DNA from: a virus
Length of the DNA stretch: 64,000 bases
Virus record (IMG/VR): IMGVR_UViG_3300002092_000035
Coordinates: 27,155-91,154 of that record
Reading direction: 5' to 3' (one strand)
Positions 1,334 to 16,375 of the stretch are shown one piece after another. Numbering within the stretch: the stretch's first letter is position 1; the number at the start of each line of letters is the position of its first letter. The position numbers and the translations under genes were made by a program. The notes beneath the pieces were generated by a model. That model saw nothing but the letters and a program-made list of their open reading frames with translations. It was not told where the DNA came from and did no database searches.

Positions 1334-1628
1334 GCGCCGATAGCTCAATTGGTTAGAGCCGACCGCTTACTGTAATATGTGGGCCTCTATGATGGAAACA
1401 TTATAGATGTAAGTGATCAAATTCGGGGAACCCTTTCAAATGGCGATCCCGAGCCAAGCCCTGCAAAGGGAAGGTGTAGAGACTAGACGGTCACCATCTA
1501 AGTCGTAAGATATGATGAAGGTATAGTCCAGACCACAAATCGGTCGTCTTTTATATGACCGAGTAACGAAAGCTATAGTGGTAAGCATAACGGTCTGGTT
1601 GGGGGTTCGAGTCCCTCTCGGCGCACCA
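1334..1628 (+). tRNA. tRNA-Ile2(CAU), intron-containing (exons 1334-1367 and 1586-1628)
   Basis: Spliced: GCGCCGA...GACCG-CT^CAT-AA-CGGTC...TCGGCGC-A-CCA; C4-G69 and body resemble lysidine tRNA-Ile rather than Met. Confidence 0.85.
1368..1585 (+). ncRNA. Group I self-splicing intron (IC3, Azoarcus-like), no ORF
   Basis: P1 GCU/UAC..GUG GGC with U-G at the splice site; AAATTCGGGGAA, GATCCCGAGCCAAGCC, GTAGAGACTAGACGG, GAAGGTATAGTCCA core; terminal G. Confidence 0.92.
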
Positions 1629-3421: not shown

Positions 3422-5350
3422 ATGCAAAAGAAAAAACTGACCTTTGTCAACCCTAATTTTCAACAAGGCCCAAGAGAATTTAATGCGTATTATCTTCCTT
3501 ATACGACCGGCGTGTTGTGGAGCTATGCGATACAATTTGAAAATATCAGAGATAATTACTCCTTAGGTGGGTTCATCTGGCGACGCGATGATATACAAAC
3601 TGTAATAGAATCTCTCATGGATAGCGATATTGTTGTGCTATCTACATACATATGGAATAGGTCTTACAATCATGTTGTCGGTAGAGAATTAAAAAAAGCC
3701 AATCCTAACGTGTTTATAATGGCAGGAGGTCCGGAACCGCCGGTATCCGATCCCAACTTCTTTGAGCGGTTTCCGTATATAGATGTCTGTGGGGTCCAGG
3801 AAGGGGAACGGTCTTTCACTGCGGTCCTAGAAGAACATCTTAAAGAGAATCCTGATTATACTCATATCAAAGGATTGTTGGTAAATGATAACGGCAAGAC
3901 GATCAACACTGGACCCGCTGTAAGAATAGAAAAGTTAGATGACATTCCTAGCCCGTACCTTACAGGAATTTTTGATGATCTTGTCAGAGAAAATCCAGAT
4001 ATCAACTGGAACGTTACTGTAGAAACGAATCGCGGATGTCCCTATATGTGCACCTTTTGTGACTGGGGAAGTCTGACCTATAGTAAAGTAAAGAAGTTTG
4101 ACATAGAACGGGTGTTTAAGGAACTAGATTGGGCGGGCCAACAGGAATGTGACTATTTACATTTTACTGATGCTAACTTCGGCATCTTTCCTGAACGTGA
4201 CATGTCTATTGCAAAGAAACTCGTAGCTGTTCAGAAAGAATACAATAATCCTAAGACATATGGCATGGCTTGGGCAAAAAACCAGAAGAAAGAAGTCGTT
4301 GATATCGTCAGAGTGTTGATGAATGAAGGCGGCAACAAGATTGGTCTCAATCTTTCAGTACAGACAATGGATGAGAACACCCTAGATATCATTAAACGAA
4401 AAAATCTGGGAATGAACCAAATTGAAGAAGTATTCCAACTGTGTGAAGAGAATGGTATTCCTTTATTTACTGAATTGATTTTGGGCCTGCCAGGGGAAAC
4501 ACTTGAAACTTGGAAGAATAACTTCTACGCATTGTATAAAGCAGGTAACCATACTGGTATTACTGTATATCAAGCACAGTTGCTTGAGAATGCAGAGATG
4601 AACCTTACCCAGAAGCAAGAGTATGATCTAAAGGGGCAAATTGTATATGATTATCTAGTAGGAACGTACAACGAACACGAACTGCGTGAAGGCGTTGAAG
4701 TAGTAGTATCTACTAGGGACCTTACTCCCGAGAAGATGAATCAAGCACAGGTTCATTCTTGGTATCAGAATACTTTTCATATTGACGGTATCACCAATTA
4801 CATCAGTCGTGCATTATATAAACTGTATGGAATAGAATACGCTGATTTCTATGAAGGACTATTTGAACATATCAAAACTGATTTCTGGCTAAATTCAGAA
4901 GTAGAACGTATCTCAAAGTATTTTCGAGGATGGGGAGAACAAGGTGCTATCAATCACCCTCCTATTCAAGGCATTGAGATTCACGGACACAACCTGATCT
5001 ATTCAACAATCATCAACATCAGTAGCCAAAATAAACATGACCACATCTTAGATGTAGTAGAGTCTTATCTTCGTAAAACTTTCGTCATTGAAGAATCGCT
5101 ATTACAAGATATGATGACCCTGCAACGAAACTATCTGATAGACCATGTTAATATCAAATCCTATCCTAAAATAATTAAGTTTAAACATGATATAGTAGGG
5201 TATGTACAAGGACAATGTGATATTGATACTCCTGCTGAATATGAATTTGATTTTCCAGAAGACAAAGACATGAATCTAAAAAGATTCTGTGAACAACTTT
5301 TCTTCGCTCGCCGCAGGAATTTTGGTAAAGCGTGGTTAACTAAGTTGTAA
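3422..5350 (+). CDS. B12-binding radical SAM protein
   Basis: N-terminal cobalamin-binding fold (STYIWN, GGPE, EGE); ETNRGCPYMCTFCDW CxxxCxxC. Confidence 0.9.
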   Translation: MQKKKLTFVNPNFQQGPREFNAYYLPYTTGVLWSYAIQFENIRDNYSLGGFIWRRDDIQTVIESLMDSDIVVLSTYIWNRSYNHVVGRELKKANPNVFIMAGGPEPPVSDPNFFERFPYIDVCGVQEGERSFTAVLEEHLKENPDYTHIKGLLVNDNGKTINTGPAVRIEKLDDIPSPYLTGIFDDLVRENPDINWNVTVETNRGCPYMCTFCDWGSLTYSKVKKFDIERVFKELDWAGQQECDYLHFTDANFGIFPERDMSIAKKLVAVQKEYNNPKTYGMAWAKNQKKEVVDIVRVLMNEGGNKIGLNLSVQTMDENTLDIIKRKNLGMNQIEEVFQLCEENGIPLFTELILGLPGETLETWKNNFYALYKAGNHTGITVYQAQLLENAEMNLTQKQEYDLKGQIVYDYLVGTYNEHELREGVEVVVSTRDLTPEKMNQAQVHSWYQNTFHIDGITNYISRALYKLYGIEYADFYEGLFEHIKTDFWLNSEVERISKYFRGWGEQGAINHPPIQGIEIHGHNLIYSTIINISSQNKHDHILDVVESYLRKTFVIEESLLQDMMTLQRNYLIDHVNIKSYPKIIKFKHDIVGYVQGQCDIDTPAEYEFDFPEDKDMNLKRFCEQLFFARRRNFGKAWLTKL

Positions 5351-13690: not shown

Positions 13691-14086
13691 ATGAAACATA
13701 AACTTTACTGTATTTTCGCAGACGAATCTGTTAAGAAAATGAACGGTATCAGGGGAAAAATGTGTACCCAGGCAGGCCACGCATATGTTCACTCAATATG
13801 GGATGCATTCGCACCAAGTTTCAACTTGATCAAAATGTTTCGTAAAATCAAACAGGCGTATGCTTATAAACACAGTGAACGTGCATACAAAATCACGCTG
13901 AGGATATCCACTGTGGATGAGCTTAAAGCTCTCCAGGAAAAGTACCGAGACATTTGTGGTACCAGTCTGGTAACGGATGCAGGTTTCACCGTGTTTGCTG
14001 AGCCGACTACTACTTGTCTTGGAATTGGTCCAATACGAGAAGATAAAATCGGTGACGATCTAAAGGCACTAAAAACGTTTACTTAA
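13691..14086 (+). CDS. Peptidyl-tRNA hydrolase type 2 (Pth2)
   Basis: GKMCTQAGHA, DAGFT, TCLGIGP motifs. Confidence 0.88.
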   Translation: MKHKLYCIFADESVKKMNGIRGKMCTQAGHAYVHSIWDAFAPSFNLIKMFRKIKQAYAYKHSERAYKITLRISTVDELKALQEKYRDICGTSLVTDAGFTVFAEPTTTCLGIGPIREDKIGDDLKALKTFT

Positions 14087-14172: not shown

Positions 14173-14249
14173 GGCTCCTGGGTCTGCATGGTGAAGACAC
14201 CCGCCTGTCACGCGGGAGATGAGGGGATCGTTACCCCTAGGAGCCGCCA
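14173..14249 (+). tRNA. tRNA-Asp(GUC)
   Basis: CT GTC AC, G73-CCA; T loop ATCGTTA. Confidence 0.92.
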
Positions 14250-14323
14250 ATTTTAATACCCAAAACAGTTTACTCTCATGAGAGAGTGTACTATAATAAG
14301 AAAATCAGAGATAAGGAAATCAC

Positions 14324-14890
14324 ATGAAGATCACTCTACGCAAGGCCAACGCAATTCAAGTAGCTGTCAACGATGCTATCAAGGGTCTTGACTTTAATTC
14401 TGTTGTTCACATCAATGAGTTTCAGACTCCTGATGCAGAGATCAATGCACTTGCAACTAAGTTTGCAGATAATCTTGTTCGCCGGAATAGTTTGCTTGAC
14501 GCCCTTTACGAGATTCGTAAGGCAGTCGCATCGGCAAATGATAGCAACGGGATTGATGTTCGCCTAGCTGATGTCGCTCGTTTTGAGAAGGACTTACAGT
14601 TCTATAGCACCCACGCAAAGGGGTCTGTAATGACAGATTCTAATGTGATCGCTGGCAAGCTGGATAAGCTTCGTAACCGTAAGGAAGAATCTTATGGCTA
14701 CGGACGAGACGCTACAATTGACACTTCAATCTTTACAACAGCACTACTTGAATCCTTTAAGGGTATCGTCGTTGCTGCTAAGAAGGCAAAGCAGAAGTTA
14801 CAGGATGAACTCCTTGAGTTGAACGTCCGCACTGAGATTGAGTTCTCGGCTGCTACAGTCGCGACACTCACAAAGGAAGGCATCCTTTAA
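14324..14890 (+). CDS. Helical protein resembling the DIP1984 family
   Basis: MKITLRKA..Q start; I...N..NGI; C-terminal KQKLQDELLELNVRTEIE resembles the DIP1984 C-terminus (recalled, not searched). Confidence 0.55.
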   Translation: MKITLRKANAIQVAVNDAIKGLDFNSVVHINEFQTPDAEINALATKFADNLVRRNSLLDALYEIRKAVASANDSNGIDVRLADVARFEKDLQFYSTHAKGSVMTDSNVIAGKLDKLRNRKEESYGYGRDATIDTSIFTTALLESFKGIVVAAKKAKQKLQDELLELNVRTEIEFSAATVATLTKEGIL

Positions 14891-14930
14891 AGTTTGGTAG
14901 TTAGACCCCTCGCAGTGGGGGTAAATTGCC

Positions 14931-15164
14931 CGGAAGAGAAAAGAGAGATTAGAATAGACACCCGTTCCAATTAAATTGGAACCAGCATCCGAAGCTCTTG
15001 AAAAGCTTCTCGCTAGTATGATCTAACCGTATTTTGTTGCATATTGTGGTTGAGAAATACACTGGCTTATTGTAGATTGTTCTTTGTTGATTGTTTGGTA
15101 GGTTGTTCTTGTACGAGACACCGATGCAGTTTGCACAGTCTATCACTTGCTCTTTTCTTTTTCG
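14931..15164 (+). ncRNA. Candidate ~230-nt structured RNA with 7-nt periodic UUGU repeats
   Basis: 15-bp closing stem 14931-14945/15150-15164; inner ATAGAC/GTCTAT; TTGT at 15070, 15077, 15084, 15091. Confidence 0.6.
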
Positions 15165-15195
15165 TAATTATTTTTAAAAAAGTTGAAAATAGTTC

Positions 15196-15264
15196 TTGAC
15201 ATTGGTATGAGGACTATATATAATAAGAAAATAAGAGATGAGAAATCATCTTCGCTCTTTGAAA
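15196..15264 (+). promoter_or_regulatory. Consensus sigma70 promoter plus boxB/boxA-like site
   Basis: TTGACA-17-TATAAT; AGATGA-GAAA-TCATCT; CGCTCTTTGAAA. Confidence 0.75.
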
Positions 15265-15276
15265 TTGTAGAATTTA

Positions 15277-15368
15277 TATTCTCATTAGATGAATACACAG
15301 GACGGACATAGCCCCCGTAACACGGGGCAGAATGGTGGTGACGACAGTGTGTTCTTCTAATGAGAATA
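15277..15368 (+). ncRNA. Handle-stem small RNA, copy 2
   Basis: TATTCTCATTAGA-T-GAATACAC pairs with GTGTGTTC-T-TCTAATGAGAATA. Confidence 0.6.
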
Positions 15369-15457
15369 AGAATTGGGGGCATAGCCTCTTTAGGGTAGCA
15401 GGGAGTAATAAGTAGGTCGCAAGGCTAAAGGCATAAATACATTGAAGGAAACTTAAT

Positions 15458-16141
15458 ATGTATTATGTGTATATGCTTTTGGACCCACGTAAAGACAATA
15501 TCCCTTTCTATATCGGAAAAGGTATCGGTGATAGATGGAAAGACCATCTGAAAGAATCTGCTGATTCTACTATTAATGAGCGGAAGTTTTATACCATTCA
15601 AAAGATAGTTAAGTCGGGACTTGTAGTCGGCCACAAAATTGTCAACTGGTTTGATGATGAAGAACAGGCATATGCGTTTGAAGAACAGTTGATTACTAAG
15701 TATGGTAGGAAGGGTTACGACCCAAATGGCATACTGACTAATATCTGTTTAGATTCTAGGCCTCCTAGGTGGCAAGAGGGACCTAAGCGAGACGAAATAA
15801 TTCAAAAAATTAAAGCTACTAAAGCTAAAATGGATTTGTCTCACTCGCAACAGACCAAAGATGATATTGGAAATAAGTTGCGGGGCAAAAAAAAGCCGCC
15901 CCGATCAAAAGAACATTGTTTAGCGTTAAGTAACGCACTTAAAGGTAAACCGTTAACTAAGCCTTGCAAGGATGAAACAAGAAAGAAGCGTAGCGAGAAT
16001 CAGCTAGGAAAGAAAGCAACTGCTGAAACTTGTGAGGCAATATCCAAAGCATTGACAGGCAGAACATTGACGGAAGAGCATATAGAAAAAATACGAGCCG
16101 CAAGGCTTGCTGCTATTGCTCGTAAAAAAGAACAGGATTAG
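15458..16141 (+). CDS. GIY-YIG (LEM-3-like) homing endonuclease with NUMOD3 repeats
   Basis: YYVYML.DP....PFYIGKG.G.R; E..LI..YG; basic repeats. Confidence 0.85.
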   Translation: MYYVYMLLDPRKDNIPFYIGKGIGDRWKDHLKESADSTINERKFYTIQKIVKSGLVVGHKIVNWFDDEEQAYAFEEQLITKYGRKGYDPNGILTNICLDSRPPRWQEGPKRDEIIQKIKATKAKMDLSHSQQTKDDIGNKLRGKKKPPRSKEHCLALSNALKGKPLTKPCKDETRKKRSENQLGKKATAETCEAISKALTGRTLTEEHIEKIRAARLAAIARKKEQD

Positions 16142-16296: not shown

Positions 16297-16375
16297 AGCG
16301 GGATAGGGGAGTCGGGTCGTCCCCGCTGGTCTCATAAGCCGGAAATCGGTGGTTCAAATCCATCTCCTGCACCCA
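16297..16375 (+). tRNA. tRNA-Met(CAU), initiator-like
   Basis: A1/A72 mismatch, G11-C24, CT CAT AA, TTCAAAT loop. Confidence 0.85.

What the first reader, a model, noticed from the sequence alone, without database searches (positions are those of the whole stretch)
14324..15164. DIP1984-like helical protein followed by a closed RNA with exact 7-nt periodic UUGU repeats
Seen: after the stop, a hairpin (14895-14930) and then a ~230-nt unit closed by a 15-bp stem and an inner ATAGAC/GTCTAT helix. It contains hairpins GTTCCAAT/ATTGGAAC and GAAGCT/AGCTTC and a U/G-rich tract with TTGT at 15070, 15077, 15084 and 15091 (more at 15103 and 15109; TTG at 15037 and 15044). No credible ORF. Known: oligomeric RNA binders such as TRAP read short motifs at fixed spacing, and type III antitoxins are repeat RNAs next to their protein gene. 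Inference: a two-part protein-plus-RNA system in which an oligomer or filament binds one heptad per subunit. The DIP1984 resemblance is from recalled motifs only.
Basis: partly seen in the sequence, partly recalled or inferred. Interest (0 to 1): 0.75.

Follow-up and report, generated by a model that had tools for sequence, protein, structure and literature searches.

The report
Phage protein paired with UG-heptad RNA
A large tRNA-rich phage carries a small helical protein gene that, in the 78 informative of 80 related viral contigs and in five cultured Caulobacter and Brevundimonas phages, sits next to an uncatalogued ~270-nt structured RNA displaying invariant UG dinucleotides exactly 7 nt apart, which looks like a new phage protein-RNA particle of unknown function.

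Summary

**RNA.** Window 14891-15164 is a real structured RNA. It folds with z = -4.0. On 54 distinct homologues, 94.7% of cells are paired, 31 of 38 pairs show compensatory changes, and 0 of 500 shuffles reach this.

**UG motifs.** The RNA carries eight invariant UG motifs, arranged 2 + 4 + 2, at exactly 7-nt spacing. In lineages that lack one hairpin, the last six merge into one unbroken run of heptads.

**Linkage.** The RNA lies beside the 188-aa gene, on the same strand, in 78 of 80 viral loci: upstream in 36 and downstream in 42. It has its own boundaries: a promoter or a tRNA 3' end on one side and a U-run on the other. It is therefore a separate RNA gene, not a UTR.

**Cultured phages.** The pair recurs in the cultured phages CcrColossus, CcrPW and three Brevundimonas phages, where the protein is about 25% identical.

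**Protein.** It matches no Pfam family. Its best solved-structure match by two methods is 3KDQ, and it is predicted to form a homodimer.

**Databases.** No Rfam family and no paper was found.

**Not shown.** Protein-RNA binding and the function of the module are inferred, not demonstrated. The type III toxin-antitoxin reading is not supported.

The parts
14269..14297 (+). sigma70-like promoter (TTTACT-17-TATAAT) for the protein gene and, in this phage, probably the RNA too
   Evidence: no promoter or terminator lies between the gene and the RNA in the window
14324..14890 (+). 188-aa helical protein gene. It has no Pfam family and matches phrog_25230 (unknown function). The fold is 3KDQ-like, and a homodimer is predicted.
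14891..14897 (+). conserved RNA 5' boundary, (A/G)UUUUGG
   Evidence: In other phages the same motif follows a mature tRNA 3'-CCA or lies about 7 nt after a -10 box.
14896..14930 (+). P0 hairpin (GGUAGUU paired with AAUUGCC around an inner GC hairpin)
   Evidence: helix 1: 6 of 7 pairs have compensatory changes
14931..14959 (+). 5' arm of the closing stem, an internal loop with an invariant AG, and the AUAGAC helix
   Evidence: helices 2-4
14964..14982 (+). P2 hairpin; sequence varies between lineages
14991..15009 (+). P3 hairpin whose loop displays CUUGAAA in most lineages
15012..15066 (+). P4 long hairpin. Its loop carries the first UG-N5-UG unit, with G at 15039 and 15046.
   Evidence: helices 5 and 6; spacing 7 in 52 of 54
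15070..15093 (+). single-stranded track of four UUG heptads, with G at 15072, 15079, 15086 and 15093
   Evidence: spacing 7 in 54 of 54 at each of three intervals
15101..15122 (+). P5 hairpin, variable in sequence and absent in 9 of 54 homologues
   Evidence: where it is absent the flanking UGs are exactly 7 nt apart
15125..15133 (+). last UG-N5-UG unit (UGCAGUUUG)
   Evidence: spacing 7 in 54 of 54
15138..15164 (+). GUCUAU helix, an invariant CU, and the 3' arm of the closing stem
15165..15175 (+). U-rich tail after the closing stem; the likely 3' end or terminator
   Evidence: Read from the sequence. U-runs follow the RNA in many homologues. The terminator scan did not call it.

Best explanation
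Window 14891-15164 encodes a discrete, stable, structured non-coding RNA of about 270 nt that belongs to an undescribed phage RNA family. Together with the adjacent 188-aa gene it forms a conserved two-gene module.

**Most likely mechanism (inferred).** The protein is a symmetric homodimer that docks on the RNA's phased, single-stranded UG-N5-UG units. There is one unit in the P4 loop, two in the central track and one after P5. This would give a ribonucleoprotein of fixed stoichiometry, held in shape by the long closing stem.

**Timing and processing (inferred).** The module is made early, from sigma70-type promoters, together with the phage tRNAs. In many phages the RNA is released by tRNA-operon processing.

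**Shown here.** The RNA structure, the motif phasing, the genetic linkage and the separate RNA boundaries.

**Inferred here.** Protein-RNA binding, stoichiometry and role. My leading guess for the role is a trans-acting particle that acts on host or phage RNA or on translation. It is a weak guess.

**Confidence.** The figure of 0.5 is for the binding model. That this is a real RNA family genetically coupled to the protein family I hold at about 0.95.
For: **RNA is real.** The fold has z = -4.0. On 54 distinct homologues, 94.7% of cells are paired, 31 of 38 pairs show changes on both sides, and 0 of 500 shuffles reach this. Slid controls pair only 36-52%. G-U pairs make the structure strand-specific.

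**Phasing.** Eight UG are invariant. Spacing is exactly 7 in 54 of 54 sequences for four intervals and in 52 of 54 for the fifth. Nine homologues without P5 have six contiguous heptads. P5 always inserts between UG4 and UG5, that is, between pairs.

**Linkage.** The RNA is on the same strand next to the gene in 78 of 80 viral loci, 36 upstream and 42 downstream. The other two loci may simply be cut short.

**Cultured phages.** CcrColossus, CcrPW, Kikimora, Domovoi and Kabachok each have one homologue (hhalign 97.9%, E 3e-13; per-genome E 1e-13 to 1e-15). Each is followed by an unannotated 285-310-nt gap with the same architecture: a covarying closing stem and 5-6 UG heptads, with z = -5.3 and -3.7.

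**Separate RNA gene.** The RNA has its own TTGACA/-10 promoter in L041 and L056. It abuts a tRNA CCA end in L051, L080 and L010. A tRNA lies between gene and RNA in L015-L027 and L055. A U-run follows it, and then a separate promoter for the gene.

**Protein oligomer.** The homodimer model scores 0.72, and the best of 3 controls scores 0.00. In calibration this mark was reached by 20 of 30 proteins solved as pairs of one chain and by 1 of 23 solved as single chains. The runs agree in at least 96% of contacts, and the partner's pLDDT is at least 90.

**Conserved residues.** R6, K7, N9, Q12 and the K153-K158 stretch are invariant or nearly invariant and are not among the residues named in the modelled interface.
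Against: - No direct evidence shows that the protein binds RNA.
- The family's pI is near neutral, with a median of 6.5.
- The fold is a generic helical bundle, and its only clear relative, 3KDQ, has no known function.
- A two-fold symmetric dimer does not obviously fit direct repeats 7 nt apart on one strand.
- The RNA in the Caulobacter phages is matched by architecture and position only. The covariance model gives E = 1.4-2.2 and nhmmer gives E of 0.6 or worse.
- The reverse question, how often the RNA occurs without the gene, did not complete.
Confidence: 0.5

Rival explanations
1. The RNA works through a host factor, or on its own. The phased UG units would bind or titrate a conserved bacterial RNA-binding protein or nuclease. 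The neighbouring protein would be linked for another reason, such as stabilising, processing or regulating the RNA.
For: - The UG units are identical across phages whose proteins share only about 25% identity and whose hosts differ. This would fit a conserved host target.
- The protein is not basic.
- The module sits among early host-takeover and tRNA genes.
Against: - Strict one-to-one linkage in both gene orders, and in unrelated genomic contexts, is what cognate partners show.
- The number of motifs is fixed rather than variable, unlike sponge RNAs.
- No candidate host factor is identified.
Confidence: 0.25
2. The pair is antagonistic, in the style of a type III toxin-antitoxin or CsrA/CsrB system. 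The RNA would sequester and neutralise the protein, which would be a toxin or a translational repressor that recognises UG-N5-UG sites in mRNAs.
For: - An adjacent RNA and protein gene, and multiple short motifs on one RNA, both fit this model.
Against: - There are no tandem 30-40-nt repeat units, only a weak period-7 call.
- The motif number is fixed at eight.
- The protein is an all-helical bundle, not a Kid/MazF-like or other nuclease fold.
- Runs of three or more TTG heptads are not enriched elsewhere in the window: 3 matches against 0.9 expected, and 2 of them are in the RNA itself.
- In some phages the RNA lies downstream of the gene, or is separated from it by a tRNA.
Confidence: 0.1
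3. The RNA is a cis-acting untranslated region, a leader or 3' UTR that controls expression of the adjacent gene.
For: - In the window the RNA directly follows the stop codon with no promoter in between.
- In L041 the RNA runs into the gene without an obvious terminator.
Against: - The RNA can be upstream or downstream of the gene, up to about 450 nt away. In one locus it is about 1.6 kb away.
- A tRNA or another ORF can lie between them.
- The RNA can have its own promoter and U-run, followed by a separate promoter for the gene.
Confidence: 0.05

Closest known systems
TRAP / trp leader and HutP / hut leader of Bacillus (oligomeric proteins that read phased trinucleotides; described from my own knowledge)
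   Same: Short invariant motifs sit at a fixed spacing on single-stranded RNA, with free spacer sequence. HutP sites are UAG-N4 repeats, which also have a 7-nt period.
   Different: - Those RNAs are cis-acting leaders that control termination.
- Their proteins are beta-rich rings or alpha/beta hexamers.
- Here the RNA is a closed, stand-alone molecule. The motif is UG, and the neighbouring protein is a helical dimer with no relation to TRAP or HutP.
CsrB/RsmZ-type protein-titrating sRNAs
   Same: One structured RNA presents many copies of a short motif that could hold several dimers.
   Different: - Those motifs are GGA in hairpin loops, their number varies, and the RNA genes are not linked to csrA.
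- Here the UG motifs lie in phased single-stranded tracks, their number is fixed, and the RNA is strictly linked to the gene.
Type III toxin-antitoxin systems (ToxIN, CptIN, TenpIN)
   Same: A protein gene lies next to a non-coding RNA with repeats; these systems are phage-related.
   Different: - The antitoxin is a tandem array of about 34-36-nt units cut by the toxin, and it lies upstream with a terminator.
- The toxin is an endoribonuclease fold.
- None of these features is met here.
T4 rnaC/rnaD (species 1 and 2) and other small stable RNAs in phage tRNA clusters
   Same: The RNA is non-coding, lies inside a phage tRNA operon, abuts tRNAs and has no known function.
   Different: - There is no sequence or structure similarity.
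- T4 has no homologue of the protein.
- The T4 RNAs have no dedicated protein gene or heptad track.
- In Caulobacter phages the module is not in a tRNA cluster.
PDB 3KDQ, an uncharacterised Corynebacterium diphtheriae protein (DIP1984, from memory), and Pfam DUF6847
   Same: 3KDQ is the best solved-structure match by two methods: Foldseek probability 0.99, E 0.013; VIA Z 10.6 with 141 of 152 residues aligned. Language-model neighbours include mainly viral clusters in which 16-19% of members carry DUF6847.
   Different: - The DUF6847 and NCBIfam HMMs do not match, even at per-genome E-values.
- TM-scores are low (0.34-0.40) and rmsd is 7.5 A.
- The protein here is about 40 aa longer.
- The function of 3KDQ is unknown, so the match explains nothing.

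Membership tests
Any Rfam family (release 15) | covariance-model match at or near the gathering score | tested here: not met
   Nothing overlaps the RNA at gathering thresholds. At E up to 10, only two far-sub-threshold rows clip its last bases: hveRNA at 16.7 bits against a 90-bit threshold, and mir-651 at 17.4 bits against 106. The Caulobacter and Brevundimonas phage loci gave no match on the RNA at E up to 1.
Type III toxin-antitoxin | antitoxin is a tandem array of about 30-40-nt direct repeats | tested here: not met
   only a period-7 row with 3.9 copies and score 33. The RNA is one closed multi-helix fold.
Type III toxin-antitoxin | toxin has an endoribonuclease (Kid/MazF-like) fold | tested here: inconclusive
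   The model is all-helical with pLDDT 90.8. No nuclease appears among the fold matches. A missing match does not exclude the fold.
Type III toxin-antitoxin | RNA lies upstream of the toxin gene in one operon | tested here: not met
   The RNA is downstream in 42 loci and upstream in 36. It is sometimes separated from the gene by a tRNA or has its own promoter.
Pfam DUF6847 / NCBIfam DIP1984 family | match to the family HMM | tested here: not met
   0 of 30 members; own genome at E up to 10; four Caulobacterales phages.
Pfam DUF6847 / NCBIfam DIP1984 family | fold like PDB 3KDQ | tested here: inconclusive
   3KDQ is the top hit by Foldseek (probability 0.99, E 0.013, TM 0.34-0.40) and by VIA-align (Z 10.6, rmsd 7.5 A, 141 aligned). 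For helical bundles, Z below about 13 can reflect only a common arrangement.
TRAP/HutP-type phased-motif regulatory RNA | short motifs at fixed spacing with free spacers | tested here: met
   UG spacing is 7 in 52-54 of 54 sequences at five intervals, and the spacers vary.
TRAP/HutP-type phased-motif regulatory RNA | cis-acting 5' leader overlapping a terminator/antiterminator | tested here: not met
   The RNA is a stand-alone unit on either side of the gene.
T4 rnaC/rnaD stable RNAs | sequence or structure similarity | tested here: not met
   by eye; nhmmer; model R1. None gave a match in the T4 tRNA region.
T4 rnaC/rnaD stable RNAs | encoded inside a phage tRNA operon, abutting tRNAs | tested here: met
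   for the window's clade. This is not met in CcrColossus or Domovoi.
Y RNA / Ro RNP | Ro (TROVE) protein partner and a Y-RNA model match | tested here: not met
   There is no Rfam Y-RNA match. The linked protein is a 188-aa helical protein, not a TROVE protein. Only the closing stem formed by the 5' and 3' ends is shared.

The most novel reading that the evidence does not exclude
This would be a new class of phage ribonucleoprotein. A closed ~270-nt RNA would present four UG-N5-UG docking units for dimers of a DIP1984-fold protein, giving a particle of fixed stoichiometry that acts on host or phage RNA or on translation early in infection. The module would be ancient: it is shared by uncultured tRNA-rich jumbo phages and by phiCbK-like siphophages. 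It could give a first functional handle on the DUF6847/DIP1984 superfamily, including look-alikes in giant viruses.
Probability: 0.35. Interest if true: 0.88.

Novelty: categorically new. Interest (0 to 1): 0.8.

Why it matters
Few phage-encoded non-coding RNAs have a dedicated protein partner, and phage tRNA islands have held unexplained stable RNAs since the 1970s.

This RNA family has covariation support of the kind expected of a curated RNA family. Its phased UG signature is exact. It is tightly linked to a protein family of at least 1,461 clusters at 50% identity.

The pair survives across phages whose proteins are only about 25% identical, which argues for an important shared function.

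It also occurs in cultured phages of Caulobacter crescentus and Brevundimonas. Pull-downs, gel shifts, knock-outs and cryo-EM can therefore be done straight away.

If the protein does bind the heptads, this would be a new way of reading RNA and the first function for a DIP1984-like fold.

Tried and rejected
- **Rfam.** Gathering and permissive searches gave no family.
- **BLAST against the phage collection.** blastn and tblastn with the window's own sequences found nothing. Hits appeared only with divergent family members as queries.
- **T4 rnaC/rnaD.** Not similar, and T4 lacks the protein.
- **Model R1 of the 3' domain.** It aligns the CcrPW and CcrColossus RNAs at the right place. The E-values of 1.4 and 2.2 are no better than chance hits, so RNA homology with the Caulobacter phages rests on architecture and context.
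- **Unbiased scan of viral contigs for six TTG heptads.** Only L099 carried the protein, so the frequency of the RNA without the gene stays unknown.
- **DUF6847 and NCBIfam models.** No match.
- **Literature.** Searches for DIP1984, DUF6847, 3KDQ, CcrColossus RNAs and phage tRNA-cluster stable RNAs turned up nothing relevant.
- **Rejected readings.**
  - Coding ORFs in the RNA: indels and compensatory changes argue against them.
  - A DNA-level iteron or origin: the pairs are strand-specific and include G-U pairs.
  - A retron: no reverse transcriptase is present.
  - A group I intron, 6S RNA, tmRNA, SRP RNA or RNase P RNA: there are no model matches.
- **mRNA targets.** A search for runs of three or more TTG heptads found no enrichment outside the RNA.

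Full report
**Setting.** The window comes from a 91-kb IMG/VR phage fragment that CheckV rates as about 25% complete. It holds 19 tRNA genes, a group I intron, homing endonucleases, a PTH2 peptidyl-tRNA hydrolase, NAD-salvage genes and a DNA ligase. An earlier scan note calls the phage T4-like. I did not verify that. The finding lies inside the tRNA island, between tRNA-Asp (14173-14249) and a GIY-YIG endonuclease gene (15458-16141).

**Observation.**
- The ORF is 14324-14890.
- Hairpin P0 is 14896-14930.
- The 15-bp closing stem pairs 14931-14945 with 15150-15164.
- The inner helix pairs ATAGAC with GTCTAT.
- The two small hairpins P2 and P3 are present.
- TTG occurs at 15070, 15077, 15084 and 15091, and at 15037 and 15044.

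Four TTG in 7-nt register occur once in 64 kb, against 0.02 expected. The + strand folds with z = -4.0 and the - strand with z = -2.8.

**The protein family.** The 188-aa product has no Pfam or NCBIfam family and only a weak match to phrog_25230, of unknown function.
- It has more than 1,200 close relatives, some on contigs of up to about 350 kb. A profile search finds 1,461 clusters at 50% identity.
- The AlphaFold model is confident (pLDDT 90.8) and almost all helical.
- The best solved-structure match by both Foldseek (probability 0.99, E 0.013) and VIA-align (Z 10.6, 141 residues, rmsd 7.5 A) is 3KDQ, an uncharacterised C. diphtheriae protein. From memory this is DIP1984; I could not verify that here.
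- Language-model neighbours include mainly viral clusters in which 16-19% of members carry DUF6847. The DUF6847 HMM itself does not match, even at per-genome E-values.
- Predicted viral structures with the same fold include proteins of CcrColossus, an Erwinia phage, a Vibrio phage and two giant viruses.
- A two-copy model scored 0.72, against 0.00 for the best of three controls. In calibration this mark was reached by 20 of 30 proteins solved as pairs of one chain and by 1 of 23 solved as single chains. The runs agree in at least 96% of contacts, and the partner's pLDDT is at least 90.
- The family's pI is near neutral, with a median of 6.5.

**The RNA family.** I fetched 80 viral loci that encode relatives of the protein.
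- A profile of the downstream element finds it in 78 of them, always on the gene's strand. The two loci without it have only about 250-320 nt after the gene, and nothing was found upstream.
- The element is downstream of the gene in 42 loci and upstream in 36. It is usually within 0-90 nt, sometimes 120-450 nt, and once about 1.6 kb (L064).
- On 54 distinct sequences, the six alignable helices pair in 94.7% of cells. Thirty-one of 38 pairs show changes on both sides, and 0 of 500 shuffles reach any of the five measures. Sliding the partners drops pairing to 36-52%.
- P5 could not be aligned by MAFFT. A hairpin of unrelated sequence is predicted at its position in 45 of 54 sequences and is absent in 9. 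P2 looks equally variable by eye in the alignment.

**The phased motif.** Across the 54 sequences, eight UG dinucleotides are invariant.
- They form a pair in the P4 loop, a run of four, and a pair after P5.
- G-to-G spacing is exactly 7 in 54 of 54 sequences for four intervals and in 52 of 54 for the P4-loop pair.
- The spacers vary freely.
- In the nine sequences without P5, UG4 and UG5 are also exactly 7 nt apart, which gives six contiguous heptads.
- P5 is therefore an insertion between two pairs. Together with the isolated pairs, this suggests that UG-N5-UG is the unit. In its commonest form the unit reads UGYRNNUUG.
- The number of motifs is fixed, unlike in sponge RNAs.
- A further UUG sits at the 5' end and in the P3 loop of most lineages.

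**A separate RNA gene.** The 5' boundary (A/G)UUUUGG is the same in three contexts.
- It comes right after the stop codon in the window.
- It comes 0-2 nt after a mature tRNA CCA end in L051, L080, L010 and L015-L027.
- It lies a few bases after the -10 box of a full TTGACA/-10 promoter in L041 and L056.

At the 3' side, the closing stem is followed by a U-run. In upstream arrangements, a separate -10 element for the protein gene comes next. In L063 a tRNA starts 4 nt later. A tRNA lies between gene and RNA in several lineages. This rules out a simple UTR and fits an RNA released by tRNA-operon processing.

**Cultured phages.** tblastn with divergent family members finds one homologue each in CcrColossus, CcrPW and four Brevundimonas phages. 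I examined five of these: CcrColossus, CcrPW, Kikimora, Domovoi and Kabachok.
- The protein homology is solid: hhalign 97.9%, E 3e-13, and per-genome E-values of 1e-13 to 1e-15.
- In all five, the gene is followed by an unannotated gap of 285-310 nt.
- The gap folds into the same plan: a P0 hairpin after CUUGG, a long closing stem with clear compensatory changes between phages, a P4-like hairpin, and 5-6 UG at 7-nt spacing. The folds have z = -5.3 and -3.7.
- In the two loci examined with wide flanks (CcrColossus, Domovoi) no tRNA gene is annotated within 3 kb, so there the pair travels without tRNA neighbours.
- Sequence and covariance models do not reach significance on these GC-rich RNAs. 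RNA homology here is an inference from architecture and position.

**Interpretation.** The following is shown:
- a new, strongly covarying RNA family with an exact heptad-phased UG signature;
- tight genetic coupling of that RNA to one protein family, in both gene orders and in unrelated contexts.

My preferred reading (about 0.5) is a ribonucleoprotein of fixed stoichiometry, in which dimers of the protein dock on the UG-N5-UG units. Several things weigh against it:
- the neutral pI;
- the generic helical fold;
- the awkward fit between two-fold symmetry and direct repeats;
- the lack of any binding or expression data.

The main rival (about 0.25) is that the UG units address a conserved host factor. 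An antagonistic pair, in the style of a toxin-antitoxin or CsrA/CsrB system, is possible (about 0.1). The absence of tandem repeat units, the fixed motif number and the lack of UG-heptad targets elsewhere in the window argue against it. A cis-acting UTR is unlikely (about 0.05).

**Novelty.** No Rfam model, no Pfam family and no paper in the held library covers either partner. The nearest analogies are functional ones: TRAP, HutP, CsrB, and the T4 tRNA-cluster stable RNAs. I tested one or more defining features of each except CsrB; at least one was not met in each case tested. I therefore rate the module as new at the level of kind. It can be tested directly in Caulobacter phages.

Noticed in passing
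L015, L019-L027, L052, L055, L058, L064-L066, L069, L070; window 16297-16375: A tRNA-Met(CAU) with the initiator hallmark, a C1 x A72 mismatch (CGCGGG...CCCGCAACCA), lies next to or inside the module in at least 10 of 56 distinct modules. tRNA-Met is the commonest tRNA within 150 nt (13 of 56), and tRNA-Asp is next (12 of 56). The association is weak and unexplained.
   Followed up: partly
L011, L015-L027, L041, L056, L078 (3' end of the RNA): In several lineages the closing stem is followed directly by A-CCC(C/U), which looks like an acceptor-end tail. Other lineages have a U-run instead. It is not universal, and its meaning is unknown.
   Followed up: no
L088-L127 (IMG/VR contigs of 4-14 kb): A scan for six TTG heptads mainly returned a different, abundant class: long (TTGNNGC)n heptanucleotide arrays, often several per small viral contig. 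These are unrelated to this module.
   Followed up: no
window 15196-15457: A perfect TTGACA-17-TATAAT promoter is followed by a ~210-nt structured leader, with a CTCATTAGA/TCTAATGAG stem at about 15281-15368, ahead of the GIY-YIG endonuclease gene. Other scan notes describe this as one of a family of constant-stem RNAs.
   Followed up: no
L056:5813; L072 and L073:1181: ARAGORN calls a tRNA-Pyl (CUA anticodon, a possible amber suppressor) in one related phage and a tRNA of undetermined identity in two others.
   Followed up: no
window 1359-1544: Rfam group I intron match (61.4 bits, above the gathering score) upstream of the tRNA island.
   Followed up: no
window 13691-14086: A PTH2-type peptidyl-tRNA hydrolase gene is embedded in the tRNA island, just upstream of the tRNA-Met/tRNA-Asp pair that precedes the module.
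   Followed up: no
L001, L003, L005-L007 (about 3562-3985): In the window's closest relatives, about 420 nt, apparently ending in a small ORF, are inserted between the protein gene and the RNA. L004 keeps only a remnant of this insert. This shows that the junction between the two genes can be broken.
   Followed up: no
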